DNA from: an uncultured Mycoplasmatota bacterium
GTDB lineage: Bacteria; Bacillota_I; Bacilli_A; RF39; UBA660
Direction: 5' to 3'
NCBI GenBank assembly: GCA_947087145.1
Contig: CAMUBM010000001.1
Coordinates: 1-29,115 of the forward strand
DNA: 29,115 nucleotides
The notes under the pieces were generated by a model. The model was not told the origin of the DNA. It saw only the letters and a list, made by a program, of their open reading frames with translations, and did not search any database. The first letter of the stretch is position 1, and each line of letters starts with the position of its first letter. Positions 103 through 21,708 of this stretch are shown piece by piece. Made by a program: the position numbers and the translations under genes.

Positions 103-2217
103 ATGAACATAGTAGAAACATTAGCGGGCACATTAGGCGTAAAAAAAACACAAGTAGAAGCAGTATTAAAACTTTTAAGTGAAGATTGCACTATTCCCTT
201 TATAGCAAGATACCGAAAAGAAGCAACAGGTGCTCTTGATGAAGAGCAAATTGGTATCATTGATAGAGAATACAAATACCTTTGCAACTTAGAAAAACGA
301 AAAGAAGATGTTATTCGCTTAATTGATGAAAAAGAATTATTAACGGAAGAACTAGAAAAGTCAATCCGGGCCTGTACAAAACTCATTGAAGTCGAAGATT
401 TGTATCGTCCATTCAAAGAAAAAAAGAAAACCAAAGCAACAGAAGCCATCAAACTAGGACTAGAACCTTTAGCCAAAAAAATCATGGCTTTTCCAACGAA
501 CGGTGATTTGAATTCTTTAGCAAGTGGCTACAATATGCCAGTAGAAGAAGCTCTAAAAAATGCTGGATATATAATCAGCGAATGGATTAGTGACAATGCC
601 TCCTCTAGGAAGTGGACTCGTAACTTTATCTTTAATACTGGACTAATACAAAGTAAAAAGAAAAAAAATGCCGAAGACGAGCGTAAAGTTTACGAAATGT
701 ATTATGATTTTCAAGATAAAATTAAATACATGAAGCACTATCGTGTTCTAGCAATCAATCGAGGAGAAAAAGAAGGAATTCTTTCCGTAAGCATTGACTT
801 TGATAAAGAAAGAGTCTTAGAAAACTACAAAGAAAGAACCATAAAAAAACAAGAATCTTTTGTTGTACCAATTGTCATTGAAGCAATAGAAGATGCTCTA
901 AAACGATTAATACTACCAAGTATTGAAAGAGAAATTAGAACCATGCTTACGGATAACGCAAGTGAAGAAGCCATTAAAACATTTAAAGACAATCTAGAAA
1001 AACTATTATTAACCAAACCTGTAAAAAACAAAACTATCATTGGTTTTGACCCAGCCTTTCGTACTGGATGTAAACTTGCTGTTTTAAACCCTTATGGAGA
1101 AGTTTTAGAAATTGCAACCATCTATCCACATGAACCACATAATAAAAAAATAGAAGCAACCAAAATTTTAAGAGATTTAATTACCAAATACAACGTTGAT
1201 ATCATTGCTATAGGAAATGGTACTGCATCTCGTGAAAGTGAATTCTTTGTAGCAGAAGCCATTAAAGGACTCGATGTAAAATACAATATCGTGAGTGAAG
1301 CCGGAGCAAGTGTCTACTCAGCAAGTAAACTAGCAATTAGTGAATTTCCCGACCTTACTGTTGAAAAAAGAAGTGCTATTTCGATTGGCAGAAGAGTACA
1401 AGACCCTCTATCTGAACTCGTAAAAATTGATCCAAAAAGTATTGGAGTAGGAGAATACCAACATGATGTTAACCAAACAAATCTTTCCGATGCCCTAGAT
1501 TTTACTGTATCAAAAATTGTGAACGAAGTGGGAGTAAACATTAATACAGCGAGTTCAAGTATTTTAAAATACATTTCTGGTCTAAACAAAAAATGTATTG
1601 AAAATATCCAAAAATTCAAAAAAATGCACAACTTCAAAAACAGAGAAGAAATCAAAACTATCTCTGGTATAAGTGACAAAGTCTACGAACAATGTATTGG
1701 GTTCTTACGTATCAATGATGGAGAAAATCTTTTAGACAAAACCAAAATCCACCCCGAAAGTTATGAAATAACGAATAAAATCTTACAAGAACTTAACCTA
1801 GATATCAACAACCAACAAACAGAAAATTTTAAAGAAAAAGTGAACTTTGCAAGTGCCAAAGAATTAAGTGAAAAACTAGACGTAGACATCTATACCATAG
1901 AAGATATTCTAAAAGAATTAGTAACACCAGGACTAGACCCAAGAGACGCCTTGGAAGATGTTTTACTAAAAAGTGATATCTTAACCATCGATGATTTGAA
2001 AGAGGGCATGGAACTTACAGGAACCGTTAGAAACGTGGTCTCCTTTGGAGCATTCGTTGACATTGGTCTGCATAACGATGGTTTGATCCATATTTCAAAA
2101 CTAAGCAAAGAATATGTTTCCAACCCTTTAGATGTCATTCATGTAGGAGATATCATTACTTGTCATGTAGACAAAATTGACAAAGAAAAAGAAAAAGTAA
2201 ATTTAACGCTTATTTAA
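103..2217 (+). CDS. tex: Tex/YhgF family RNA-binding transcriptional accessory protein with C-terminal S1 domain
   Basis: TIPFIARYRKEATG N-terminus, YqgF-like GFDPAFRTGCKLAV, DPLSELVKIDPKSIGVGEYQHDV, S1 domain GTVRNVVSFGAFVDIG...GLIHISKL. Start moved to ATG 103 behind GGAGG. Confidence 0.95.
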   Translation: MNIVETLAGTLGVKKTQVEAVLKLLSEDCTIPFIARYRKEATGALDEEQIGIIDREYKYLCNLEKRKEDVIRLIDEKELLTEELEKSIRACTKLIEVEDLYRPFKEKKKTKATEAIKLGLEPLAKKIMAFPTNGDLNSLASGYNMPVEEALKNAGYIISEWISDNASSRKWTRNFIFNTGLIQSKKKKNAEDERKVYEMYYDFQDKIKYMKHYRVLAINRGEKEGILSVSIDFDKERVLENYKERTIKKQESFVVPIVIEAIEDALKRLILPSIEREIRTMLTDNASEEAIKTFKDNLEKLLLTKPVKNKTIIGFDPAFRTGCKLAVLNPYGEVLEIATIYPHEPHNKKIEATKILRDLITKYNVDIIAIGNGTASRESEFFVAEAIKGLDVKYNIVSEAGASVYSASKLAISEFPDLTVEKRSAISIGRRVQDPLSELVKIDPKSIGVGEYQHDVNQTNLSDALDFTVSKIVNEVGVNINTASSSILKYISGLNKKCIENIQKFKKMHNFKNREEIKTISGISDKVYEQCIGFLRINDGENLLDKTKIHPESYEITNKILQELNLDINNQQTENFKEKVNFASAKELSEKLDVDIYTIEDILKELVTPGLDPRDALEDVLLKSDILTIDDLKEGMELTGTVRNVVSFGAFVDIGLHNDGLIHISKLSKEYVSNPLDVIHVGDIITCHVDKIDKEKEKVNLTLI

Positions 2218-2232
2218 AAGTCATGTTATAAT

Positions 2233-2264
2233 AATAGATAGAGAAAACCACTCTATCTATTTTT
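2233..2264 (+). terminator. Intrinsic terminator after tex
   Basis: Perfect 11-bp stem AATAGATAGAG / CTCTATCTATT with loop AAAACCA, followed by T-run. Confidence 0.75.
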
Positions 2265-2308
2265 ATATCCAAAAATGGGTATACTAAAAAAACAAGGAGA
2301 AGAAAAGT

Positions 2309-4138
2309 ATGTGTGGAATTGTAGGGATCATTAGTAAAGAAAAAGAAAAAAAACAAACTATAAAAAAAATGGCGGATCGAATTAGTCATAGAGGTCCAGA
2401 TGGTGAAGGCTATTACGTAGACAAAAATGCTGCTTTAGGACACAGAAGACTTTCTATTATTGATATAGCAAGTGGTGCCCAACCGATGTATAACGAAATG
2501 GAGTCCATAGTAGTTGTTTTTAACGGAGAAATTTATAACTATATAGAATTAAAAAACGAACTAAAAAAGAAGAACCATATCTTTAAAACCAATTCGGATA
2601 CGGAAGTTCTTTTGCATGGTTACGAAGAGTGGGGTAGTGACTTACCTAAAAAACTAAGAGGAATGTTTGCTTTTGCTCTATGGGATAAAAATACAGAAAC
2701 TTTATTCTGTGCACGAGATCCTTTTGGTATTAAACCATTTTATTATTACGAAACAGATAATACTTTCCTTTTCGCATCAGAAATTAAATCTTTTCTAGAA
2801 CACCCCAAATTTGAACGTATCTTAAACAAGGATTTAATTGGTCCCTATCTATCCTTTAGTTTTACTCCTACCACCGAAACATTCTTTAAAGGTGTCTATC
2901 GTCTTGACCCGGGAAGTAGTTTGACCTACCAACAAGGCAACTTAAAAATAGAAAAATACTTTGAAATTGCATTCAATGAAAAAAATAGAGAATTAAAAAA
3001 AGTAGTAGAAGACATTGATAAAGTTATGAAAGACTCTGTAAATCACCACATGCTAAGTGATGTCGAAGTAGGTTCTTTCCTTTCCAGTGGAATAGACTCT
3101 TCTTACATTGTAAGTCTTGCCAAACCAGACAAAACCTATACAGTAGGATACGAAGAAGATAAATACAACGAGATTAACTATGCCAAAGATTTGGCCGACA
3201 AACTAAAAATAAATAATACCAGTAAAATAATCACCAAAGAAGAATACAAGAGTATTATACCAACCATTATGTATTATATGGATGAACCATCCAGTGACCC
3301 TGCTGCTATTGCCCTTTACTTTGTCTCTAATCTAGCAAGCCAAGACGTAAAAGTCGTTTTATCAGGAGAAGGAGCCGACGAATTCTTTGGAGGATATAAC
3401 AAATATAGAGAAGAAGTAGATCTAAAATGGTACAACAAACTTCCTTACTTCTTAAGACACACACTAGCCCTACTATTCAGTATCCTACCAGAAGTAAAAG
3501 GAAGAAACTTTATTGTAAGACGAGGAACCAAATTAGAGGCAGAATACATCGGAGTCAATAAAGTATTTAGTGAGAAAGAAAGAAAAAAAGTCCTTGCTTG
3601 CAACGATACGATAAGAAACAAAGACTTAACAAAACCAATTTTTGAAACCCAAAAAGGAAAAGACAATATTACCAAAATGCAAGCGATTGATATACATTTT
3701 TGGTTAATTAAAGACATTTTACAAAAAGCAGATAGAATGACCATGGCAAATTCGATAGAAGGAAGAGTTCCTTTTATTGATAAAGAAGTCTTTAAACTAG
3801 CAAGCACCTTAAACGAAGAATGCAAAGTAACAAAAGAAAATACCAAAGTAGCTCTAAGAAGTGCTGCCAAAAAAGTAATTCCCAATGAGTCTTATAAGAA
3901 GAAAAAACTGGGGTTCCCCGTTCCTCTTCGTGAATGGTTAAGAGATATGGATTTCTATACCGAAGTAAAAACAACATTTGAACAAGACTTTGTCAGAGAA
4001 TTCTTTAATCAAAACTATATTTTAAAATTATTAGAAGAACACAAAAATCATAAAAAAGATATTTATAAAAAAGTATGGACCATTTATTGTTTTATCAAAT
4101 GGTATGAGATTTTCTTTTTGGATAAGTCCTATGAGTAG
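2309..4138 (+). CDS. asnB: Asparagine synthase (glutamine-hydrolysing), AsnB family amidotransferase
   Basis: N-terminal MCGIVG (Ntn Cys), HRGPDGEG, GHRRLSIID, FNGEIYNY, RDPFGIKP, FLSSGIDSS, VLSGEGADEFFGGY, EGRVPF, KKLGFPVP. Confidence 0.95.
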   Translation: MCGIVGIISKEKEKKQTIKKMADRISHRGPDGEGYYVDKNAALGHRRLSIIDIASGAQPMYNEMESIVVVFNGEIYNYIELKNELKKKNHIFKTNSDTEVLLHGYEEWGSDLPKKLRGMFAFALWDKNTETLFCARDPFGIKPFYYYETDNTFLFASEIKSFLEHPKFERILNKDLIGPYLSFSFTPTTETFFKGVYRLDPGSSLTYQQGNLKIEKYFEIAFNEKNRELKKVVEDIDKVMKDSVNHHMLSDVEVGSFLSSGIDSSYIVSLAKPDKTYTVGYEEDKYNEINYAKDLADKLKINNTSKIITKEEYKSIIPTIMYYMDEPSSDPAAIALYFVSNLASQDVKVVLSGEGADEFFGGYNKYREEVDLKWYNKLPYFLRHTLALLFSILPEVKGRNFIVRRGTKLEAEYIGVNKVFSEKERKKVLACNDTIRNKDLTKPIFETQKGKDNITKMQAIDIHFWLIKDILQKADRMTMANSIEGRVPFIDKEVFKLASTLNEECKVTKENTKVALRSAAKKVIPNESYKKKKLGFPVPLREWLRDMDFYTEVKTTFEQDFVREFFNQNYILKLLEEHKNHKKDIYKKVWTIYCFIKWYEIFFLDKSYE

Positions 4139-4151
4139 TAACGAAAAATAC

Positions 4152-4181
4152 TTGTATTAAAACACATTATCGTGTTATAGT
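4152..4181 (+). promoter_or_regulatory. Sigma-A promoter for the putative antisense sRNA
   Basis: TTGTAT (4152-4157), 18-bp spacer, extended -10 TGtTATAGT (4173-4181). No plus-strand ORF lies downstream. Confidence 0.65.
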
Positions 4182-4187
4182 ATAAAT

Positions 4188-4283
4188 GAAGTGTTATCCG
4201 AGAGAGATAACGCTCGCATTATAAGCTTTGAGCGCTATACCAGATATTAAGTGAATTCATGATGTTTGGCTAGCGCTCTTTTT
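4188..4283 (+). ncRNA. Putative ~95-nt cis-antisense (antitoxin) sRNA; ends approximate
   Basis: Lies between the promoter and a long GC-rich hairpin GAGCGCTATACCA...TGGCTAGCGCTC (4230-4278) followed by TTTTT. It has a 5' hairpin GTTATC/GATAAC and is antisense to the 3' region of the 28-aa peptide transcript. Confidence 0.6.
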
Positions 4284-4368
4284 ATATCAATCTTAGTATG
4301 ACTAAAATTAACATAAAAATGATTACTAGAAGAAAATATACCAAATGTGATATAGAATCTTTTTTCAT
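4282..4368 (-). CDS. 28-aa hydrophobic membrane peptide MKKDSISHLVYFLLVIIFMLILVILRLI (putative type I toxin)
   Basis: ATG at 4368 behind AGGAGGAG, TAA at 4282-4284, one ~20-aa hydrophobic stretch. The ORF is conserved in frame in copy B. Below the ORF-track cutoff. Confidence 0.75.
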   Translation of the reverse strand: MKKDSISHLVYFLLVIIFMLILVILRLI

Positions 4369-4460
4369 GTACACCACTCTCCTCCTACCTTTCGAGTAAA
4401 CCCCCTGAAAGATAAAATTTAAATGAAGCGAGCGCTACTCACTGAATAACACGAGTGGCT

Positions 4461-4488
4461 ATTATAACTAAAAAAAACGAAAGTACAA
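4461..4488 (-). promoter_or_regulatory. Sigma-A promoter for the peptide mRNA (copy A)
   Basis: TTGTAC, 16 bp, TATAAT on the minus strand; same hexamers and spacing in copy B. Confidence 0.7.
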
Positions 4489-4516
4489 GACTTTCGACAA
4501 AATTGGATAAATTATT

Positions 4517-4972
4517 TTAATTCAAAATAGCAATTCCAATCGTTAAATAAGTTGCAAACAATATCCATAACAAATAAGGAATATTGAAGTAAGCACTTAT
4601 TTTTTTCTTGTTCCAAAATAAGTAAATCAGTAGAAAAACAAGAACATCCAAAAGTAGGATCCATACCACAGCAATAAATCTTGCTTTCCACAAAAAGAAA
4701 ATAAGACTCTATAAAGCATTTACAAAAAGTTGTACGTAATAGACGATGTCAACAAAACCATTTTCTTCATATTCTTTTTTATAAAGAAAATACGAAATGC
4801 CAATCAAAAGATAAAGGATAGACCAAGCAATAGGAAATAATATTTTAGGAGGAGCAAGAATAGGCCTCACAAGAGAAGTATAATCAATACTATCTCGAAT
4901 AAGAAAAGCTATGGTTCCTCCTATCACCAACGGAAAAAACAAATAAAAAAGATTTTGCAAAATTTTTTTCAT
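4517..4972 (-). pseudogene. tspO: TspO/MBR family protein interrupted by one in-frame TAG (4709-4711)
   Basis: N-half has LAPPKILFPIAWSILYLLIG and YYVQLFVNAL*. The frame continues past TAG as SLIFFLWK...AYFNIPYLLWILFATYLTIGIAILN to TAA 4517-4519, giving 151 codons. The TAG replaces the W of the LNxxWSxxFF motif. Confidence 0.85.
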
Positions 4973-6200: not shown

Positions 6201-6768
6201 ATTTATTTTCTAAAATATAAGTAAGAAGAACACCAATCGTTCTCTCTTCATGAATTTCCTTGTGAATACAAAGTTCTACGATTTCTTCATAACCTTTCCA
6301 AACAAAACCAGAAACAACTTCATTTTCTTCTAATTGTGGCCCGTCTTCACTAATTGTAAAGTCCGTAATTTCATAATAATACAAATCCCAAATGACTCCA
6401 GCTCCATCATGAGAAACTTTTAATAATCTGGGGTTATTTACAACAAAACCAACTTCTTCTAAAACCTCTTTTGGAACAGTGGATTCTACATGTTCCAAAA
6501 CGTTCCCTTGTTTTAAAGATTTCTTATATTCTTCCAAACTATCAAAAACTTTTCCGCCAGGAAGCCGATAATCCCAATCATTCAGTTCATAACGAAATTC
6601 TCGAGAAAGTAAAATCTTTCCCTTTTTCTTATCAACCAATAAAGCACGTATTCCTGGAGGTCTTCGTACCATGTTCCTTTTGATATGTTTGGTAACTCCC
6701 TCGATAACAAAATCTTCCTCTGTCTCCAAAAATTCAAAAAAACCATTATTATAAACAGATTTTTCCAT
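6199..6768 (-). CDS. NUDIX hydrolase (ADP-ribose pyrophosphatase-like)
   Basis: RRPPGIRALLV, LLSREFRY, YRLPGGKVF...KEVLEEVGF. Start reassigned to ATG 6768 behind AAGGTGA. Confidence 0.85.
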   Translation of the reverse strand: MEKSVYNNGFFEFLETEEDFVIEGVTKHIKRNMVRRPPGIRALLVDKKKGKILLSREFRYELNDWDYRLPGGKVFDSLEEYKKSLKQGNVLEHVESTVPKEVLEEVGFVVNNPRLLKVSHDGAGVIWDLYYYEITDFTISEDGPQLEENEVVSGFVWKGYEEIVELCIHKEIHEERTIGVLLTYILENK

Positions 6769-14588: not shown

Positions 14589-15740
14589 ATGAAAGAAAAG
14601 AAACAAAAAACTCCATTTCAAAAATTTTTAATTCTTTACGCAGTTTGCTTGAGTTTATTAATGATTATCTTCTTAATCTATGTAGGAAATAGTTTAGTAA
14701 AATACGAAAACAACCAAACAGAAAATTACTTAAAGAATACCATAGAAGACTTAAAAACAACAGAAATAAACAACTTATCAACAATAAAAAAAAGCCAATG
14801 GGAAAAAGAAAACATAAATAACGAAGAAATACTAAAGAAAATTCTAAAAGACACCGAGAACATTACTTATCAACAACAAGAAAACACCAAAGAGGACCAT
14901 CCCACCTTTCATGTTCTTTATAAAAAGAAACCAGTGCTAGAAATTACTTTAAAAGAAAAGAAAAAATTACATCGTTTAGGACTACTCACATTCTCCGTTT
15001 GGGAGACAGAAAATGTGAGTAGCATTATGGAAGAAGGCTTATATGACTACACTTTCGAAGTACCAAGTACTTATCAAATAAAAATAAATGAAAAAGAACT
15101 AACAACAGAAGATAGAAAAGAGGAAACCGAAAACGAAGGTTTATTAGAAATCTCTAAGTATGTAGAAATACCAACACTTGTAACCTATGAAATAAAAGGA
15201 TTACTAGAAGAACCAACGATAGAAATAACAGATAAATCTGGCAACAATATTGAATACAAAAAGGAAGATGGAAAAATTACCAAAGAACTCAATTTCCAAA
15301 AAATTGCTACATTAGAAGAAGCAAAAGAAAAAATAGAAAACATGCCCGAAATTTTAAAAATGGCGAAAGATTGGAGTTTATTCTTATCAAAAGACTTAAC
15401 AGGTCCAAAACATGGTTACAACACAATTAGCAACTATTTAATTGAAGGATCGTATTTATCCAAATATGCTTATAGTTGGGCAACAGGAGTAGATATTACT
15501 TTTACAAGTTCGCACACATTATCTAATCCACCATTTACAAATGAATTAGTAGAAAACTTTGAAATCTATAATGAAAATGCTTTTTCTTGTGAAGTATATT
15601 TAATAAAACATATGATAATAAAAGGAAACAAAAAACTAGACGATACTATGCACGATAGAATGTATTTTGTTCGTATAAATGGTGAATGGAAACTTGTAAA
15701 CATGGAAGCCATGACAGAAGGAGAAAATCAAAATGAATGA
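14589..15740 (+). CDS. Hypothetical membrane-anchored extracellular protein
   Basis: 383-aa ORF with GGAG RBS, one N-terminal TM segment, no recognised catalytic motif. Confidence 0.75.
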   Translation: MKEKKQKTPFQKFLILYAVCLSLLMIIFLIYVGNSLVKYENNQTENYLKNTIEDLKTTEINNLSTIKKSQWEKENINNEEILKKILKDTENITYQQQENTKEDHPTFHVLYKKKPVLEITLKEKKKLHRLGLLTFSVWETENVSSIMEEGLYDYTFEVPSTYQIKINEKELTTEDRKEETENEGLLEISKYVEIPTLVTYEIKGLLEEPTIEITDKSGNNIEYKKEDGKITKELNFQKIATLEEAKEKIENMPEILKMAKDWSLFLSKDLTGPKHGYNTISNYLIEGSYLSKYAYSWATGVDITFTSSHTLSNPPFTNELVENFEIYNENAFSCEVYLIKHMIIKGNKKLDDTMHDRMYFVRINGEWKLVNMEAMTEGENQNE

Positions 15741-16782
15741 AATTGCAGTCATAATTCCTGCTTATAAACCACACGAAAAAATAATGAATGACTTTATGGA
15801 AGAATTGAAAAGAAACTTTAAAAATATCGTTATCGTCGACGATGGAAGTGGAAAAGAATACGAACCCTTTTTTAAAAAATTTGAAGAAATGAATATTCCT
15901 GTCTTAAGACACCATGTGAACATGGGAAAAGGAAGAGCTATCAAAACTGCATTCAATTATTGCTTAAATACTTACTCTCATTTACTAGGGACCATTACCG
16001 CAGATTGCGATGGACAACATACGGTGAGTGACATTACAAAATGTATTGAAAAACTAAAAGAAAACCCCAAAAAATTAGTCATTGGAACGCGAAACTTTGA
16101 TGCAGAAAATGTTCCTTTTAAAAGTAGATATGGAAATAAAATTACTAGAAATATGTTTACAGCATTTATTGGCATAAAAATCACTGATACCCAATCAGGT
16201 CTTCGTGCCTTTGGCGTAGATGCCATGAAAGAATTTCTAACCATTGCAGGAGAAAGATACGAATACGAAACCAATATGCTCATTGCTTGCAAAGAACAAG
16301 AGATAGAAATTGCTGAAGTTCCCATAGATACTATTTACATAAACAACAATGAACTTAGTCATTTCCATCCCTTTAGAGATGCTTTTCTCATATACAAATT
16401 ATTTTTAAAATATGTTTTAGCAGCAGTCAGTTCCTTTTTTGTTGATATTTTGTTATTTTCACTATTTATGCATATCTTACCAAATATCAACCTAGGAATA
16501 CTAACGACTATTGTGATTGCAACTATACTCGCAAGAATATTTTCTTCAACATACAATTTTACCATCAATGCCAAAGTAGTATTTAAAAACAAAGGAAAAA
16601 ATTCTATAATCAAATACTTTACTTTAGTTGTTATTCAAATGTTTATTTCAGCATTTTTAGTCTCTGAAATATTTAAAGCAACCAATTTAAATTCGACAAC
16701 TTTAAAAATAGGAGTAGACATACTAATATTTATAGCAAATTTTATTATTCAAAGAGAATGGGTATTTAAAAATAAAAAATAG
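15733..16782 (+). CDS. Bifunctional GT2 glycosyltransferase / GtrA flippase-like protein
   Basis: IIPAYKP, IVDDGS, NMGKGRAIK, ADCDGQH, DTQSGLRAF, YEYETNML; hydrophobic GtrA-like C-terminus ending QREWVF. Confidence 0.9.
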   Translation: MNEIAVIIPAYKPHEKIMNDFMEELKRNFKNIVIVDDGSGKEYEPFFKKFEEMNIPVLRHHVNMGKGRAIKTAFNYCLNTYSHLLGTITADCDGQHTVSDITKCIEKLKENPKKLVIGTRNFDAENVPFKSRYGNKITRNMFTAFIGIKITDTQSGLRAFGVDAMKEFLTIAGERYEYETNMLIACKEQEIEIAEVPIDTIYINNNELSHFHPFRDAFLIYKLFLKYVLAAVSSFFVDILLFSLFMHILPNINLGILTTIVIATILARIFSSTYNFTINAKVVFKNKGKNSIIKYFTLVVIQMFISAFLVSEIFKATNLNSTTLKIGVDILIFIANFIIQREWVFKNKK

Positions 16783-16812: not shown

Positions 16813-16832
16813 ATCTTCTTTTGTTGAAAACC

Positions 16833-16860
16833 TTGTACTTTCGTATTTTTAAATTATAAT
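16833..16860 (+). promoter_or_regulatory. Sigma-A promoter for the peptide mRNA (copy B)
   Basis: TTGTAC, 16 bp, TATAAT, as in copy A. Confidence 0.7.
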
Positions 16861-16956
16861 AACGACTCGAGTTATCCAGAAAAGTAGCGTTTGCTTCATT
16901 TCAATTTTTACTTAGAGGTTTTAGTAAATCGAAAGGTAAGAAAGCGAGTGTTGTAT

Positions 16957-17019
16957 ATGAAAAAAGATTCTAATATTACATGGGTATGTTTTGTTTTAGT
17001 AATACTAAAGTTAATATAA
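16957..17019 (+). CDS. 20-aa hydrophobic peptide MKKDSNITWVCFVLVILKLI (paralogue of the 28-aa peptide)
   Basis: Aligns to copy A with an in-frame 8-codon gap; shares MKKDS, LVI and L[R/K]LI-stop. Confidence 0.6.
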   Translation: MKKDSNITWVCFVLVILKLI

Positions 17020-17090
17020 AAAGTGCGATATCCAAACACCATAGGTTTTACTCGATGTTCGGTATAGCGGTTTACAAAAACTGTAAGGCG
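17018..17090 (-). ncRNA. Putative antisense sRNA of copy B (5'-shortened; ends approximate)
   Basis: Minus-strand hairpin CCGAACATC/GGTGTTTGG followed by TTTTT over the peptide stop. TTGTAT -35 kept at 17120-17125; only a weak -10 (TAATTT, 17097-17102). Confidence 0.4.
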
Positions 17091-17142
17091 TTATTGAAAT
17101 TACATGATTATGTGTTTGAATACAAGCCTCGCTTAAAAAAAA

Positions 17143-17207: not shown

Positions 17208-17975
17208 GTGGAGATTTTAAAAATAGAAGATTTAAAAAAATATTATGGAAAAAAGAGTAGTATTATCACCAAAGCCATCAATGGCATTAGTTTAGAAGTA
17301 CAAAATCAAGAATTTGTTGCCATTATGGGTGCATCAGGTTCAGGGAAAACTACTCTTTTAAACTGCTTATCCACAATTGATACAGTAACAAGTGGCCACA
17401 TTTATATAGATGGGCAAGATATCACAGAATTAGAAAACGACGAACTTTCAGACTTCCGGCGAGAAAAACTAGGCTTTATCTTTCAAGACTTTAATCTTTT
17501 GGATACTTTAACCATAGAAGAAAACATTGCTCTTTCTTTAATTATCAACAAAACAGATCCAAAATTCGTAAACAATGCTGTAAAAGACATCGCAGGAAGA
17601 TTAGACATTGCAAACATTCTAAAAAAGTTTCCATATGAAGTCTCTGGTGGACAAAAACAACGTTGTGCCTGTGCAAGAGCCCTAATCAATCATCCAAAAC
17701 TCATACTTGCCGACGAACCAACAGGTGCACTAGACTCTAGATCAGCAAGACTGCTTTTAGAAACAATGTGGGAAATGAATGAAAATTTAAATGCTACCAT
17801 ATTAATGGTCACCCATGATGCTTTCTCTGCGAGTTTCTGTAAAAGAGTACTATTTTTAAAAGACGGAAAAATATTCAATGAAATCCAAAAAGGAGACAGC
17901 CCAAGAAAAGAATTTTTTGAAGAAATATTAGACGTTCTAACTCTTATGGGAGGAGATCTAAACGATGTTAAGTAA
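17208..17975 (+). CDS. ABC transporter ATP-binding protein, BceA-like
   Basis: GASGSGKTT, GFIFQDFNLLDTLT, VSGGQKQR, LADEPTGALDS, MVTHD. Confidence 0.93.
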   Translation: MEILKIEDLKKYYGKKSSIITKAINGISLEVQNQEFVAIMGASGSGKTTLLNCLSTIDTVTSGHIYIDGQDITELENDELSDFRREKLGFIFQDFNLLDTLTIEENIALSLIINKTDPKFVNNAVKDIAGRLDIANILKKFPYEVSGGQKQRCACARALINHPKLILADEPTGALDSRSARLLLETMWEMNENLNATILMVTHDAFSASFCKRVLFLKDGKIFNEIQKGDSPRKEFFEEILDVLTLMGGDLNDVK

Positions 17976-19989
17976 GCTTTCCCTTAGAAATGTAAAAAGA
18001 AGTCTTAAAGATTATTTAATTTATATGGTAACCATTACTCTTTCTTTTTCTCTTATCTTTTCATTCAATTTAATTGCTTTTTCGCGCGACTTAACAGAAC
18101 TATCCGAACATATGGAAAATTTTAAATATGCTATTCTTTTTGTAAGTATGATTGTCATATTTGTAGTGGGATGGTTAATCAATTACACCATGCATTTTAT
18201 GTTTGAAAAAAGAAGCAAAGAATTTGGTACTTACATGCTCTTAGGAATTAAAAAGAAAGAAATCAATAAACTTTTTTTATTAGAAAATATTTTTCTAGGC
18301 AGTATCGCCGTCGTACTTTCTTTTTTTATCGGAACATTGTTTTCCATTTTACTTTCTGCTATCATTATGAACATTTTTGAAATGCCTTATCAAATTGCCC
18401 TTTCCATACATATTACTCCTATACTTGTCTCTCTTACTTATTTTCTTTTCATTTATATATTTGTCTTATTAAGAAGCAAAAGAAGAATAAAAAAAATGAA
18501 TATTTATGATTTACTTTACCTCGAAAAACAAAATGAACAAAAAATGTCTAAAAAAACCAGAAGTTGGACTTTTATACTAGCAAGTTCTTTAGGAGGGTTA
18601 GGACTTTTACTATTTGATTATGCCTTTAAAATAGTGGAAGAACCTACTATGATGATTCCTTTCTTTCTCTCTATTCTTTTACTGGGGATAAGTATTTATG
18701 GCCTAACCCTATCGATAGGAGAATTTCTATTAAACTATTGTTTAAAACACGAAAAAATAAAATACAAAAAAGACAACTTATTTATCACTAGGAATTTTTC
18801 TGCCAAAGTAGGTACAATGGGAATTACATTAGGAACACTTGCTTTGTTATCCACACTGACACTCTTATGTCTAAACGTTTCCGCGTCTTTTAAAGATGCT
18901 TTTGAAAACCAAGTGAATACGCGAATTCCTTATGATATTGTAATGAATAAAATTTATTCCGAAACAGGTGCCTTACATCCCAATATACAAAATAAAGATT
19001 ACCAAAAAAAATACCAAGAAAGTCATGAGTACATTGAAAAAAGGGTAGGAATAAAAGAAGAACTAATCTACAACATCTATGTTAAATCAGTAAATATCGA
19101 CGATGCAGTAATAGCAAAAAAACTATCTAGTGTAAATGGAAAACTAACCTTTCAAAATGACTTATTCATAAAACTAAGTGACTACAATAAACTACAAAAA
19201 ATGCTAAATAGGAGTGAAATTACTTTAAATGAAAACGAATACTTTTTACATTATTATAAAGAATTAAGAAATTGGTTTGAACAATTGAAAAAAGAAGATT
19301 TAAATGTAGAAATAAATGGAAAAACACTGCATTGTAAAGAAATGACCGATAAAAACTATGTAAGTTCTTGGAACTCCAGTTATTATCTCCTTGTTGTCCC
19401 CGACGAATATGTGAATAATATGTTGATTGAAAATGCAATAAATGCTATCAACACAGAAAAAGAAATCACGACTTCCGTGGTAGAAGAATTAAAAAATAAA
19501 GTAGGAAATTTAGAAATAACGAGTAGCATAAATGGAGAAGACTACACCATTGCTATAGACACAATGATTATAAGAGCAGAAGTTTTAGCCCAAAATCGTT
19601 CTGCCATAACAATATTTTCTTTTTCCTTAACTTATTTAGCTCTAGTATTCATCGCTGTGGTAGGAACCATCCTCTCTATCCAAACCTTATCAGATGCTAC
19701 GAAATACAAATATCGATATGACATCTTAAAGAAACTAGGAGTAAGAGAAAAAGAAATCGACAAAACCATATTAAAACAAGTTACTATGAACTTTATATTC
19801 CCCATTGTCTATCCCTTACTCATTGCAGTGATAACCACATTCTCCTTAAATAGACTTTTTTTTAACATATCAAGTGAAGAACATACCTATCTTTATTCCT
19901 TAGGAAACTCTATATTCTTATTTCTACTAATTTATGGTATTTATTTTCTAGCTACATACATTGGTTTTAAGAAAAATAAAAGTGAATAA
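17965..19989 (+). CDS. ABC transporter permease, BceB-like
   Basis: KRSKEFGTYMLLG, multiple TMs flanking a large extracellular loop, KYRYDILKKLG, NFIFP. Confidence 0.9.
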   Translation: MLSKLSLRNVKRSLKDYLIYMVTITLSFSLIFSFNLIAFSRDLTELSEHMENFKYAILFVSMIVIFVVGWLINYTMHFMFEKRSKEFGTYMLLGIKKKEINKLFLLENIFLGSIAVVLSFFIGTLFSILLSAIIMNIFEMPYQIALSIHITPILVSLTYFLFIYIFVLLRSKRRIKKMNIYDLLYLEKQNEQKMSKKTRSWTFILASSLGGLGLLLFDYAFKIVEEPTMMIPFFLSILLLGISIYGLTLSIGEFLLNYCLKHEKIKYKKDNLFITRNFSAKVGTMGITLGTLALLSTLTLLCLNVSASFKDAFENQVNTRIPYDIVMNKIYSETGALHPNIQNKDYQKKYQESHEYIEKRVGIKEELIYNIYVKSVNIDDAVIAKKLSSVNGKLTFQNDLFIKLSDYNKLQKMLNRSEITLNENEYFLHYYKELRNWFEQLKKEDLNVEINGKTLHCKEMTDKNYVSSWNSSYYLLVVPDEYVNNMLIENAINAINTEKEITTSVVEELKNKVGNLEITSSINGEDYTIAIDTMIIRAEVLAQNRSAITIFSFSLTYLALVFIAVVGTILSIQTLSDATKYKYRYDILKKLGVREKEIDKTILKQVTMNFIFPIVYPLLIAVITTFSLNRLFFNISSEEHTYLYSLGNSIFLFLLIYGIYFLATYIGFKKNKSE

Positions 19990-20038
19990 GTTCAATTTTT
20001 CTAAACGTGCTATAATAAAAGAAAGAAAGGTGATTTTT

Positions 20039-20695
20039 TTGACCATCCTAATTATTGAAGACGAAAAAACAATTCGAGAAAATATCCAAGAATTATTAAA
20101 CAAAAATGGCTACCAAACTCTTGCTACCCAAAATGGCGAAGACACATTACAAGTAGTAGAAAAAGAAAATCTTCAACTCGTTTTACTAGACATTCATTTA
20201 CCCTTAGAAGATGGGTTTTCTTTATGTAAAAAAATAAAGAAAATAAAAAACATTCCTGTCATTTTTTTAACCAGTGACTCCAGAAGCAAAAGTGAATTAA
20301 AAAGCATTCAAGTCGGAGGGATTGACTACATCACAAAACCATTCTCTAAAGGAATTCTTTTAGAAAAAATAAAAAGAGCAACAAAGAAAAATCCTTTGGA
20401 TTACAAAGAAATCACTAAAGAAGAATATACCTTAGATTTACACTTATCTATCTTAAAATACAAGAAAAAAGAAATCGAACTTACGCGAAACGAATTTCGC
20501 ATTTTGTACTACTTTTTTACCAATGAAAAACGCATTATTACCAAAGAAGAATTATTAGAATATTTATGGAATGATAAATACTACCTAGACGAAAACATTC
20601 TTACCGTAAATTTAGGTCGCTTAAGAAAAAAAGCAAAAGAGATAGGAATAGAAGAACTGATTAAAACAGAAAGAAAAAAAGGTTATACTTTATGA
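20039..20695 (+). CDS. OmpR-family response regulator, BceR/GraR-like
   Basis: ILIIEDE, LLDIHLP, DYITKPF, DENILTVNLGRLRKK. Start reassigned to TTG 20039 behind AAGGTGA; own TGCTATAAT at 20008-20016. Confidence 0.9.
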   Translation: MTILIIEDEKTIRENIQELLNKNGYQTLATQNGEDTLQVVEKENLQLVLLDIHLPLEDGFSLCKKIKKIKNIPVIFLTSDSRSKSELKSIQVGGIDYITKPFSKGILLEKIKRATKKNPLDYKEITKEEYTLDLHLSILKYKKKEIELTRNEFRILYYFFTNEKRIITKEELLEYLWNDKYYLDENILTVNLGRLRKKAKEIGIEELIKTERKKGYTL

Positions 20696-21708
20696 AATTT
20701 TTACAAATGCTAGAAGAGAAAATAGTTTTTCTTCTTTTTCAAATAACTTTTATTTTTACAATTGGTATTTTTTTAAACGTATTTGGAATTCCTAAACTTT
20801 ACATCTTTACTTTTATTATCATTTTTATCACTTTTACTTTCCTTTATTTAGGTATCTATTTTTATCAAATAAAGCAAAAAGAAAATCGCATAAAACAGCA
20901 ACTTTTGTCTTTAGAAGAAAAATATCTGATAGCAGAAGTATTAGAACGCCCAAAAAATTTAGAAAACCAAGGCTATTACAATGCATTAAAAAAAGCTTGT
21001 AAAGCCATGAATGATAAGATTACCCACTTAGAAAAAGAGCAAAAAGAATACGAAGAATATATTGAAAGCTTTGCACATGAAATGAAAACACCCATCGCTG
21101 TACTATCTTTAGAAACAGAAAAGAAAAAAGAAAAGCTTTTACAAGAAGAAATAAAAAAAATAGACAACTTAGTAGAACAAATGCTTTACTACGCCAGAAT
21201 GAAAACGACGGAAAAAGATTATTTTGTAAAAAAATTAGACTTAGAAGAAGTAGTGCATGCCGTTTTACTAGAATACAAAGACTATGTATTAAAACAAAAA
21301 ATCACTTTAGAAGTAAGAAATACAAGCCAAAATGTGTACACCGACGAAAAATGGTTGTCTTTTATTCTATCTCAAATCCTTCAAAATGCAATAAAATACC
21401 AAAATAAAACCAATAAGAAGATCAAAATAGAAGCCAAAGAACAAGAAAACAAATGTATATTACAAATAGAAGATAATGGTTGTGGTATTGCTAAAAAAGA
21501 TATTATTAGAATTTTTGAACCATCATTTACAGGAGACAATAGAAAAAATAAACAAGCAACAGGAATGGGTTTGTATTTAGCAAAAAAACTCTGTGATAAA
21601 TTAGGATTAAAATTAATAGTAACTTCAATAGAAAACAAATACACACGTGTAGAAATTGTTTTTCCCAAAGGGAAAATGCATAACTTAGAACAAACAACAA
21701 AGTTTTAA
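20692..21708 (+). CDS. Intramembrane-sensing histidine kinase, BceS/GraS-like
   Basis: Two adjacent N-terminal TMs with no sensor loop; FAHEMKTP, QILQNAIKY, DNGCGI, FTG, GMGLYL. Confidence 0.92.
   Translation: MKFLQMLEEKIVFLLFQITFIFTIGIFLNVFGIPKLYIFTFIIIFITFTFLYLGIYFYQIKQKENRIKQQLLSLEEKYLIAEVLERPKNLENQGYYNALKKACKAMNDKITHLEKEQKEYEEYIESFAHEMKTPIAVLSLETEKKKEKLLQEEIKKIDNLVEQMLYYARMKTTEKDYFVKKLDLEEVVHAVLLEYKDYVLKQKITLEVRNTSQNVYTDEKWLSFILSQILQNAIKYQNKTNKKIKIEAKEQENKCILQIEDNGCGIAKKDIIRIFEPSFTGDNRKNKQATGMGLYLAKKLCDKLGLKLIVTSIENKYTRVEIVFPKGKMHNLEQTTKF

What the first reader, a model, noticed from the sequence alone, without database searches (positions are those of the whole stretch)
4150..4500. Unannotated two-copy peptide / antisense-RNA element: candidate new type I toxin-antitoxin family
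Seen: the asnB-tspO gap and the GT2-ABC gap (16821-17126) are homologous along their whole length. Each has TTGTAC-16-TATAAT, a ~90-nt leader and a short hydrophobic ORF (MKKDSISHLVYFLLVIIFMLILVILRLI; MKKDSNITWVCFVLVILKLI). Each also has a convergent TTGTAT promoter leading to a hairpin plus U-run that ends on the peptide stop codon. The hairpin sequences differ between copies but pairing is kept. Established: 3'-overlapping convergent toxin mRNA/sRNA pairs define Firmicute type I TA loci such as TxpA/RatA and BsrG/SR4. Inference: this is such a locus. The peptide lacks the Fst APxxxG signature and the basic C-terminal tail of TxpA/BsrG, so it may be a new family.
Basis: partly seen in the sequence, partly recalled or inferred. 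Interest (0 to 1): 0.85.

Follow-up and report, generated by a model that had tools for sequence, protein, structure and literature searches.

The report
New candidate type I toxin-antitoxin family
Two intergenic gaps carry copies of an unannotated module, a roughly 28-residue membrane peptide gene facing a small antisense RNA gene, that occurs up to 12 times per genome in one genus of small-genome gut bacteria and looks like a new type I toxin-antitoxin family, though toxicity and transcription are untested.

Summary
The two window copies are 77% identical. Copy 1 (4150-4502, minus strand) is intact. Copy 2 (16820-17126, plus strand) looks decayed.

This is not a two-copy oddity. It is a family with over 100 loci in uncultured Bacilli/'Tenericutes' gut MAGs. 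In the window's genus, 18 of 31 species carry 1-12 copies. It was not found in 149 other genera of the same family.

- **Peptide:** the ORF is conserved (MNKExxxxLxxxLLVIIIMLIVVILRLI). pN/pS is 0.5, and the second codon position is the least variable.
- **Antisense RNA:** it has a conserved promoter, a conserved 5' hairpin and a terminator with compensatory changes. The terminator is more stable on the antisense strand in 71 cases against 11.
- **Known families:** there is no match in Rfam, Pfam or NCBIfam. Only one mis-started ORF appears among 1.84 billion protein representatives.
- **New feature:** the mRNA leader hairpin and the sRNA 5' hairpin co-vary. The mRNA 5' end can therefore pair with its own 3' UTR, which is the sRNA target. 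This is the predicted minimum-energy fold in 20 of 23 members.
- **Mobility:** the closest relatives have an empty asnB-tspO site.

Best reading: a new type I toxin-antitoxin-like family with 3' overlap. Toxicity, transcription and RNA ends are untested, and the metatranscriptome contigs were uninformative.

The parts
4493..4502 (-). Conserved upstream box TTTTGTCGAA, just 5' of the peptide promoter -35. In some family members it is doubled as TGTCGAA-N3-TGTCGAA.
   Evidence: Nearly invariant in the alignments. The doubled form is visible. It occurs only 5 times in the 850-kb genome, and 2 of those are at elements.
4461..4488 (-). Peptide (toxin) mRNA promoter: TTGTAC (4488-4483), 16-nt spacer, TATAAT (4466-4461).
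   Evidence: Read. TATAAT is invariant and TTG conserved in 23 of 23 elements. The consensus scan does not call it, because the -35 is weak.
4478..4496 (-). Terminator-like hairpin CGAAAGT-cttgt-ACTTTCG plus T8, overlapping the -35. It probably terminates the upstream tspO-like gene. Specific to this copy.
   Evidence: No equivalent pairing in other family members.
4428..4452 (-). mRNA leader hairpin and 5' arm of the predicted 5'-3' fold-back (GUGUUAUUCAGUGAGUAGCGCUCGC). It resembles the sRNA 5' hairpin in sequence.
   Evidence: The minimum-energy fold pairs nt 5-29 with the 3' UTR. Leader and sRNA loops co-vary in 31 of 71 cognate pairs against 6.7% of non-cognate pairs. The fold-back appears in 20 of 23 family mRNAs.
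4379..4385 (-). Shine-Dalgarno GGAGGAG, 10 nt upstream of the ATG. Predicted to be partly sequestered by UUUUAUCUUUC.
   Evidence: The SD window is on average 74% paired across 23 members.
4282..4368 (-). 28-aa hydrophobic peptide ORF MKKDSISHLVYFLLVIIFMLILVILRLI plus stop (candidate toxin).
   Evidence: pN/pS is 0.50 and entropy by codon position is 0.83/0.36/0.97 over 25 gapless homologues.
4152..4181 (+). Antisense sRNA promoter: TTGTAT (4152-4157), 18-nt spacer, TATAGT (4176-4181).
   Evidence: Read. The -35 complement ATACAA and the -10 region are conserved.
4185..4287 (+). Candidate antitoxin sRNA, about 100 nt. It has a 5' hairpin (4191-4213), a linker, a terminator hairpin (4230-4278) and a U-run (4279-4283) ending at the peptide stop codon.
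   Evidence: The fold is -34.7 kcal/mol, z -4.5. The covariance model match covers 4185-4287 at 76 bits. Structure counts are and terminator strand asymmetry.
4159..4175 (-). Possible weak terminator of the peptide mRNA (ACACGAUAAUGUGUUUU), lying inside the spacer of the antisense promoter.
   Evidence: A hairpin in the fold. It is conserved in only a subset of the family, so the mRNA 3' end is uncertain.
16820..17126 (+). Copy 2, degenerate. Promoter TTGTAC (16833-16838), 16 nt, TATAAT (16855-16860); weak SD; 20-aa ORF at 16957-17019 (MKKDSNITWVCFVLVILKLI).
   Evidence: The mRNA fold has z -0.59. The 8-codon in-frame deletion is visible.
17014..17105 (-). Copy 2 antisense RNA remnant. The terminator is kept, the 5' hairpin is lost and the -10 is degraded. 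The antisense -35 TTGTAT lies at 17125-17120.
   Evidence: Covariance model match at 44.9 bits. The fold is -19.8 kcal/mol, z -2.8.

Best explanation

**Peptide mRNA.** One strand gives an mRNA of about 300 nt. It has an ~86-nt structured leader, a Shine-Dalgarno sequence that is largely base-paired, and an ORF for a roughly 28-residue single-helix membrane peptide. The peptide has a short polar N-terminus (M-N/K-K-E/D), then about 22 hydrophobic residues ending in R-L-I.

**Antisense RNA.** The other strand gives a convergent sRNA of about 75-105 nt from its own promoter. It is perfectly complementary to the mRNA 3' UTR and ends in an intrinsic terminator at the peptide stop codon. In sister sub-families the terminator lies inside the last codons.

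**Inferred mechanism.**
- The sRNA pairs with the 3' UTR, as RatA and SR4 do. This triggers duplex cleavage and mRNA decay and keeps the peptide from being made.
- The peptide, if made, damages the membrane.

**Additional inferred layer.** The mRNA 5' leader is complementary to the same 3' UTR stretch. Full-length mRNA is therefore predicted to close on itself in a fold-back, as in hok or aapA1. Leader and sRNA would then compete for one site.

**What is shown here.** Conservation and a coding signature of the ORF. Conservation of both promoters. A co-varying sRNA terminator selected on the antisense strand. Leader/sRNA hairpin co-variation. A multi-copy, patchy, insertion-polymorphic distribution.

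**What is not shown.** Transcription, RNA ends, translation, toxicity and rescue by the sRNA.
For: 1. **Coding.** The ORF is present in 47 distinct nucleotide versions. For 25 gapless 28-codon homologues pN/pS is 0.50, and entropy per codon position is 0.83/0.36/0.97. This is the pattern of NUN hydrophobic codons. An SD of GGAGG type sits 6-10 nt upstream in most copies.

2. **sRNA.** There are 97 non-redundant versions with a conserved 5' hairpin GUGUUAYC-loop-GRUAACGC. There are 69 different terminator hairpins followed by U-runs. Mean dG is -13.3 kcal/mol on the antisense strand against -9.5 on the opposite strand, and the antisense strand is the more stable in 71 cases against 11. On the covariance-model alignment of 91 matches, 98.9% of cells are paired and 6 of 14 pairs show compensatory changes. 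The covariation score is 0.154 against 0.096 in shuffles (0 of 500 reach it), and slid controls are far lower.

3. **Toxin-antitoxin-like population behaviour.** In the genus, 18 of 31 species have 1-12 copies in 1-1.5 Mb genomes. Tandem pairs exist. Decayed copies exist: copy 2 and the C109 remnant. There is no conserved neighbour gene among 101 elements. The closest relatives (AsnB 90% and 86% identical) have asnB and tspO adjacent with no element.

4. **mRNA structure.** The fold is -92.9 kcal/mol, z -8.5, with the 5'-3' helix and a sequestered SD. The fold-back appears in 20 of 23 members. Leader and sRNA loops co-vary through about 10 different trinucleotide states.

5. **Architecture.** It matches the Gram-positive families with a 3'-overlapping antisense RNA listed in the T1TAdb paper (PMC8594479).
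Against: - No experimental or transcriptomic support. The two true metatranscriptome runs gave contigs only over 3994-4196 and 4599-4758, and the other 'RNA' runs look like DNA.
- The window's own -35 hexamers are weak, and the generic scan calls neither promoter.
- The peptide has no detectable homology to any known toxin.
- This sub-family lacks the charged C-terminal tail typical of Fst, TxpA and BsrG.
- The mRNA 3' end is not defined. A terminator-like hairpin beyond the sRNA region exists in only some members. The fold-back needs the transcript to reach that far.
- Sequences in the comparative tests are related to one another, so the counts overstate independence.
Confidence: 0.65

Rival explanations
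1. This is a non-toxic small membrane protein gene under antisense control. The peptide would be an ordinary accessory membrane subunit or regulator, like KdpF or AcrZ-type small proteins. The convergent sRNA would simply tune its level. There would be no addiction or killing function.
For: Coding and sRNA conservation are equally compatible with this reading. The peptide has no similarity to known toxins. This sub-family has no charged tail.
Against: Up to 12 diverged paralogues sit in 1-1.5 Mb reduced genomes, yet 13 of 31 congeners have none. There are tandem duplicates and decayed copies. No conserved partner gene or operon exists. The closest relatives have an empty site. Housekeeping small membrane subunits are normally single-copy, syntenic and co-transcribed with their partner.
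Confidence: 0.2
2. This is a non-autonomous mobile repeat (MITE-like). Its inverted terminal similarity, between the leader hairpin and the sRNA hairpin, would be a DNA-level transposition signal. The ORF and 'promoters' would be incidental.
For: The two ends are inverted copies of one another over about 25-30 nt and co-vary. The element is multi-copy, intergenic and insertion-polymorphic.
Against: The ORF shows three-base periodicity of variation and pN/pS of 0.5. G-U wobble pairs make the terminator work on one strand only (71 against 11) and the leader hairpin on the other, which is RNA-level selection. The conserved -10 boxes and SD sit at the right distances. The inverted similarity is internal, just downstream of each -10, not at the element's termini. 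No transposase-bearing relative was seen among neighbours.
Confidence: 0.05
3. This is a secreted signalling or bacteriocin-like peptide precursor. It would resemble short hydrophobic pheromones of the SHP or PrgQ type, the latter of which also use convergent antisense transcription.
For: The peptide has a short M-K-K start followed by a hydrophobic stretch. Copy 2 and the C109 remnant lie directly upstream of FtsX-type ABC transporters. In the window such a transporter is followed by an OmpR-type response regulator and a histidine kinase.
Against: ABC neighbours occur at only 6 of 101 elements. No Rgg, PrgX-like, processing or immunity gene is a conserved neighbour. There is no double-glycine or other leader motif. 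Ten or more diverged paralogues per genome is atypical for a pheromone.
Confidence: 0.05

Closest known systems
TxpA/RatA and BsrG/SR4, BsrE/SR5, YonT (Bacillus subtilis type I toxin-antitoxin systems)
   Same: A convergent sRNA gene on the 3' side of a small hydrophobic toxin ORF. Overlap lies in the 3' UTR or the 3' end of the ORF. Each RNA has its own promoter. The host is in Bacillota. The expected mode of action is duplex-triggered mRNA decay. The architecture is as summarised in PMC8594479.
   Different: There is no sequence similarity of peptide or RNA: nothing in Pfam, NCBIfam or Rfam. The peptide is shorter (28 aa) and, in this sub-family, has no basic tail. The sRNA is shorter (about 100 nt). 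The predicted leader-3' UTR fold-back and the leader/sRNA twin hairpins are not, to my knowledge, described for these systems.
hok/Sok (plasmid R1) and aapA1/IsoA1 (Helicobacter pylori)
   Same: A long-distance pairing between the mRNA 5' end and its 3' end is predicted to lock the full-length toxin mRNA. The SD is sequestered in a local hairpin. Background is from my own knowledge and the titles and abstracts listed (PMC6733600, PMC9841398).
   Different: In those systems the antisense RNA targets the 5' part of the mRNA, and the 3' fold-back element is removed by processing. Here the 3' partner of the fold-back is itself the antisense target. Those hosts are Gram-negative. There is no sequence homology.
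Fst/RNAII (par of Enterococcus pAD1) superfamily
   Same: A Bacillota host. Convergent RNAs meet at a terminator next to the toxin stop codon. The peptide is about 30 aa with a single helix. The repeated sequence at the 5' ends of both RNAs matters for function.
   Different: In par the repeats are direct on the DNA, so the two 5' ends are complementary and pair at the ribosome-binding site. Here they are inverted on the DNA, so the two 5' ends are alike rather than complementary. The terminator is not bidirectional, since no U-run follows it on the mRNA strand. There is no Fst Pfam match.
Ibs/Sib and ShoB/OhsC (Escherichia coli)
   Same: Very short (19-26 aa), almost purely hydrophobic toxins without a charged tail. 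They are multi-copy in the chromosome.
   Different: Sib overlaps the whole ORF and OhsC is divergent. The hosts are Gram-negative. There is no homology.

Membership tests
Type I toxin-antitoxin system (generic definition) | Small (under 60 aa) hydrophobic protein-coding ORF maintained by selection | tested here: met
   47 distinct ORF versions. pN/pS is 0.50. Entropy by codon position is 0.83/0.36/0.97.
Type I toxin-antitoxin system (generic definition) | Cis-encoded antisense RNA gene with its own promoter and terminator, complementary to the toxin mRNA | tested here: met
   This is comparative evidence only. The promoter is conserved, there are 69 different terminator hairpins with U-runs, the antisense strand is favoured in 71 cases against 11, and there are compensatory pairs. 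No transcript was observed.
Type I toxin-antitoxin system (generic definition) | Peptide is toxic when over-expressed | not testable with these tools
   Needs inducible expression and growth or membrane-potential assays.
Type I toxin-antitoxin system (generic definition) | Antisense RNA prevents toxin synthesis | not testable with these tools
   Needs co-expression, and RNase III-dependent or RNA half-life assays.
TxpA/RatA and BsrG/SR4-type families | Toxin or antitoxin sequence homology (Pfam/NCBIfam toxin models, Rfam antitoxin models) | tested here: not met
   No family at E up to 1 in Pfam or NCBIfam. No Rfam family at gathering score in the window or in 12 family loci, and only noise at E up to 10.
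TxpA/RatA and BsrG/SR4-type families | [quoted passage not shown] | tested here: met
   The sRNA covers 4185-4287 (+) and the ORF stop is at 4284-4282 (-). In sister sub-families the terminator lies within the last codons.
Fst/Ldr superfamily | Fst-type toxin sequence, with the 5' ends of the two RNAs complementary through direct repeats | tested here: not met
   No Pfam match. The 5' regions of the mRNA and the sRNA are alike, not complementary.
hok/Sok-type fold-back regulated toxin mRNAs | Long-distance 5'-3' pairing of the full-length toxin mRNA | tested here: inconclusive
   It is predicted in the minimum-energy fold of the window copy (z -8.5) and in 20 of 23 members, with loop co-variation. 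It depends on an unverified mRNA 3' end, and inverted-repeat homogenisation could also explain the co-variation.
hok/Sok-type fold-back regulated toxin mRNAs | Antisense RNA targets the 5' leader or an overlapping leader ORF (mok) | tested here: not met
   The antisense gene lies on the 3' side. No conserved leader ORF was found.

The most novel reading that the evidence does not exclude
In this type I toxin-antitoxin family the antitoxin sRNA may be a sequence mimic of the toxin mRNA's own 5' leader. Both start with the same hairpin, and their loops co-evolve. Leader and sRNA would then compete for one site in the mRNA 3' UTR. That would make an sRNA-operated fold-back switch, combining the Gram-positive 3'-overlap design with hok/aapA1-type 5'-3' locking. 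It may additionally be under transcriptional control through the conserved TGTCGAA direct-repeat box upstream of the toxin -35.
Probability: 0.3. Interest if true: 0.75.

Novelty: new member of a known kind. Interest (0 to 1): 0.6.

Why it matters
Type I toxin-antitoxin systems are known from few lineages. According to PMC12390103, they have been identified only in Proteobacteria, Firmicutes and Tenericutes, and the authors think this narrowness reflects search methods that rely on similarity to known loci. This family sits in uncultured, genome-reduced gut Bacilli. It is invisible to gene callers: one mis-started hit among 1.84 billion protein representatives. Yet it occupies up to a dozen loci in a genome of about 1 Mb. 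That is a considerable investment for a reduced genome and suggests a role in genome stabilisation, phage defence or persistence in the gut.

The data here provide a ready peptide profile, an sRNA covariance model and more than 90 natural variants, which suit structure-function work on toxin mRNA folding. If the leader/sRNA mimicry is functional, it would be a regulatory design not described for Gram-positive type I systems.

Tried and rejected
- **Rfam.** Searched at gathering score and at E up to 10 on both copies, and at gathering score on 12 family loci. Only noise came back: Chlorobi-RRM at 22.9 bits against a cut-off of 45, miRNA models and the like.
- **Pfam and NCBIfam on the peptides.** Nothing.
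- **The search for related loci on genome contigs.** The first alignment was too variable. The second gave 243 pattern hits, but none passed tblastn at E 1e-3 because the peptide is too short. A DNA pattern from the sRNA hairpin worked instead.
- **Public RNA runs.** X8 and X15 are probably DNA. X18 and X19 gave only two short contigs outside the element core. No directional or end information was obtained.
- **blastn against plasmids and phages.** No match.
- **Literature.** Searches for the peptide motifs and for type I toxin-antitoxin plus RF39 found nothing.
- **Conserved partner gene.** I considered an ABC transporter, Rgg or a transposase. This was rejected after clustering 471 neighbouring ORFs from 101 elements: the best cluster is present at only 18.
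- **LexA/Cheo box.** By eye, the upstream TGTCGAA box is a direct repeat, not the CGAAC-N4-GTTCG palindrome. I left it unexplained.
- **Model sensitivity.** The sRNA model R1 misses the divergent C17 copy in the same genome. The count of 0 in 149 other genera is therefore a lower bound on the distribution.

Full report
**1. Observation**

Copy 1 lies on the minus strand between an asparagine synthase gene (2309-4138, Pfam Asn_synthase) and a tspO-like gene. Copy 2 lies on the plus strand between a GT2/GtrA glycosyltransferase (15733-16782) and an ABC ATPase with an FtsX permease (17208-19989). The two gaps align end to end at 77% identity, with blastn E 1e-34.

Both copies have TTGTAC, 16 nt, TATAAT, then a leader of about 86 nt and a short hydrophobic ORF. 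The ORFs are 28 aa (4368-4282) and 20 aa (16957-17019).

On the opposite strand, copy 1 has TTGTAT, 18 nt, TATAGT. A 5' hairpin follows (4191-4213), then a long terminator hairpin (4230-4278) and a U-run (4279-4283) that abuts the peptide stop codon. This RNA folds at -34.7 kcal/mol, z -4.5.

The generic promoter scan does not call either promoter, because the -35 boxes match TTGACA at only 3 of 6 positions. The case for these promoters rests on conservation.

**2. It is a family, not a two-copy element**

- In the window's own 850-kb, 74%-complete MAG there is a third, divergent but complete copy on contig C17. Its peptide is MKQEIYFLKVVIILLIVVILLLVLKMTLN. There is also a promoter/leader remnant on C109.
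- DNA and peptide-profile searches of relatives found many copies within the genus.
- A DNA pattern taken from the sRNA 5' hairpin hit 112 stretches in the species-representative genome collection. Nearly all are 'uncultured Bacilli' or 'uncultured Tenericutes' MAGs from mouse, rabbit, chicken and other guts. Named examples include Ca. Onthocola stercorigallinarum (classified as Bacilli incertae sedis) and Mycoplasma sp. CAG:776. About eight hits in unrelated phyla are at the level expected by chance.
- A covariance model of the sRNA found 1-12 copies in 18 of 31 species of the genus.
- The same model found none in one genome each of 149 other genera of the family. It misses the divergent C17 copy, so this is a lower bound.

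**3. The ORF is coding**

Most loci keep an ORF at the same place. The consensus is MNKExxxxLxxxLLVIIIMLIVVILRLI. Among 47 distinct nucleotide versions, 25 are gapless 28-codon ORFs. For these, pN/pS is 0.50 and variability per codon position is 0.83/0.36/0.97 bits. A strongly conserved second position is what NUN (hydrophobic) codons under selection would give.

Sister sub-families share the same promoters and sRNA hairpin but encode other small hydrophobic peptides with charged tails. Examples are MSEKLFFQLVIIIVIIIFGDNNDKDATRK and MKQEIHFLKVIILFLLFIFLEAVKKTSASK. In these the sRNA terminator is embedded in the last codons.

In-frame deletion variants of 20-22 aa recur, copy 2 among them.

**4. 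The antisense RNA is real at the level of selection**

In 97 non-redundant loci the region reads, on the antisense strand, as follows: a -10 box, GUAAGUGUUAYC-loop-GRUAACGC, a linker, a hairpin of very variable sequence and length, then a U-run.

I found 69 different terminator hairpins. Their mean stability is -13.3 kcal/mol on the antisense strand against -9.5 on the peptide strand. The antisense strand is the more stable in 71 cases against 11. This is the signature of G-U pairs tolerated on the transcribed strand only.

On the model-based alignment of 91 matches:
- 98.9% of cells form pairs.
- 6 of 14 pairs carry double changes.
- The covariation score exceeds all 500 shuffles and all slid controls.

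These sequences are related to one another, and the alignment was fitted to the model. The numbers are therefore supportive rather than formal probabilities.

**5. Structure of the peptide mRNA**

The predicted transcript of copy 1 folds at -92.9 kcal/mol, z -8.5. Three features stand out.

- *Fold-back.* The leader (nt 5-29) pairs with the 3' UTR at exactly the stretch complementary to the sRNA 5' hairpin.
- *SD sequestration.* The SD is held in a local hairpin.
- *In-ORF hairpin.* A 19-bp hairpin joins codons 15-20 with the last four codons, the stop codon and the A-run after it. In the family this hairpin is more stable on the mRNA strand in 21 cases against 4, and it shows GC/GU/AU alternation.

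The fold-back arises because the leader hairpin and the sRNA 5' hairpin are near-copies of each other. Their loops co-vary. The first three loop bases are identical in 31 of 71 cognate pairs against 6.7% of non-cognate pairs, through about ten different states such as GAG, TGT, AAG, GAA, AAT, CAG, AAA and TAT. The leader version keeps its pairing through G-U pairs that work only on the mRNA strand.

In 20 of 23 family mRNAs the minimum-energy fold contains the leader-3' UTR helix, and the SD window is on average 74% paired.

Caveats:
- The mRNA 3' end is unknown. A weak terminator-like hairpin inside the antisense promoter spacer exists in only some members.
- Concerted evolution of a short inverted repeat could also produce the co-variation.

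**6. Population behaviour**

- No neighbouring gene is conserved. The best cluster, a membrane protein with an fn3 domain, flanks 18 of 101 elements. Other neighbours are a PBP, ArgRS, ParB, ABC transporters and HTH proteins.
- Tandem pairs exist (L053, L110).
- Copy 2 is decaying. It has an 8-codon deletion, a weak SD, a lost sRNA 5' hairpin and -10, and an mRNA fold no better than random.
- The closest relatives, G343 (AsnB 90% identical) and G344 (86%), have asnB and tspO back to back with a short gap and no element. In G343 an ordinary terminator sits in that gap. Copy 1 is therefore an insertion or loss polymorphism.
- In copy 1 a terminator-like hairpin that overlaps the toxin -35 appears to have taken over termination of the tspO-like gene.

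**7. Comparison with known systems**

There is no match to any Rfam family, and Rfam holds 13 type I antitoxin families according to PMC8594479. There is no Pfam or NCBIfam match, no plasmid or phage relative and no literature hit for the peptide motifs. Only one protein among 1.84 billion representatives belongs to the family: a 57-aa mis-started version of the same ORF.

The architecture is that of the Gram-positive families with a 3'-overlapping sRNA: TxpA/RatA, BsrE/G/H, YonT and SprG/SprF. The predicted fold-back recalls hok/Sok and aapA1/IsoA1, but here the 3' arm is the sRNA target. Unlike Fst/RNAII, the 5' ends of the two RNAs are alike, not complementary.

**8. Verdict**

A conserved module of a peptide gene and an antisense sRNA gene is established with high confidence, about 0.9. 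[quoted passage not shown] It lacks any expression or toxicity data, because the public RNA runs were uninformative. It is a new family of a known kind. The leader/sRNA twin-hairpin design is the part that could make it a new variant.

Noticed in passing
window 4517-4972 (minus strand): The tspO-like gene next to copy 1 is split into two ORFs in different frames (4972-4709 and 4693-4517). This is either a frameshift or pseudogene, or an assembly error. Relatives have one continuous gene here.
   Followed up: partly
window 4493-4502, and family loci such as L049, L053 and L110: A conserved TTTTGTCGAA box lies immediately upstream of the toxin -35. In one sub-family it is a direct repeat, TGTCGAA-N3-TGTCGAA, with a 10-bp period. 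That looks like a response-regulator-type activator site. Only 5 exact copies occur in the whole 850-kb genome.
   Followed up: partly
G000 contig C17, about 6400-6720: A third, divergent but complete module in the same genome. Its peptide is MKQEIYFLKVVIILLIVVILLLVLKMTLN. It has its own sRNA, with TTGTCA-17-TATAAT and a short GACGCUAAUUUAGCGUC terminator inside the ORF end. The sRNA model R1 missed it.
   Followed up: partly
G000 contig C109, about 2170-2600 (minus strand): A remnant with an intact box, -35, -10 and leader start, but no ORF or sRNA. It lies directly upstream of a MacB-like ABC transporter gene that has its own promoter.
   Followed up: no
window 17208-21708: Copy 2 sits upstream of a BceAB/RS-like cluster: an ABC ATPase, a 674-aa FtsX permease, an OmpR-type response regulator and a histidine kinase. 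ABC neighbours occur at only 6 of 101 elements, so this is probably coincidental.
   Followed up: partly
window 4400-4412 (minus strand), and the family alignment A5: A conserved AGGGGGU(U) run lies 30-45 nt upstream of the start codon in most leaders. No conserved pairing partner was found. It could be a ribosome standby site or a protein-binding site.
   Followed up: no
window 4279-4325 (minus strand): A hairpin inside the ORF pairs the ...IFMLIL codons with the ...LRLI-stop-AAAAA stretch. It is 19 bp in copy 1. It is more stable on the mRNA strand in 21 of 25 homologues and shows some compensatory pairs.
   Followed up: partly
L158 (G343) and L159 (G344), downstream of asnB: The closest relatives show the empty site. 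asnB and tspO converge with a gap of about 10-100 nt. In G343 a bidirectional terminator, AAAAAAGAAGCU...AGCUUCUUUUUU, sits in that gap.
   Followed up: yes
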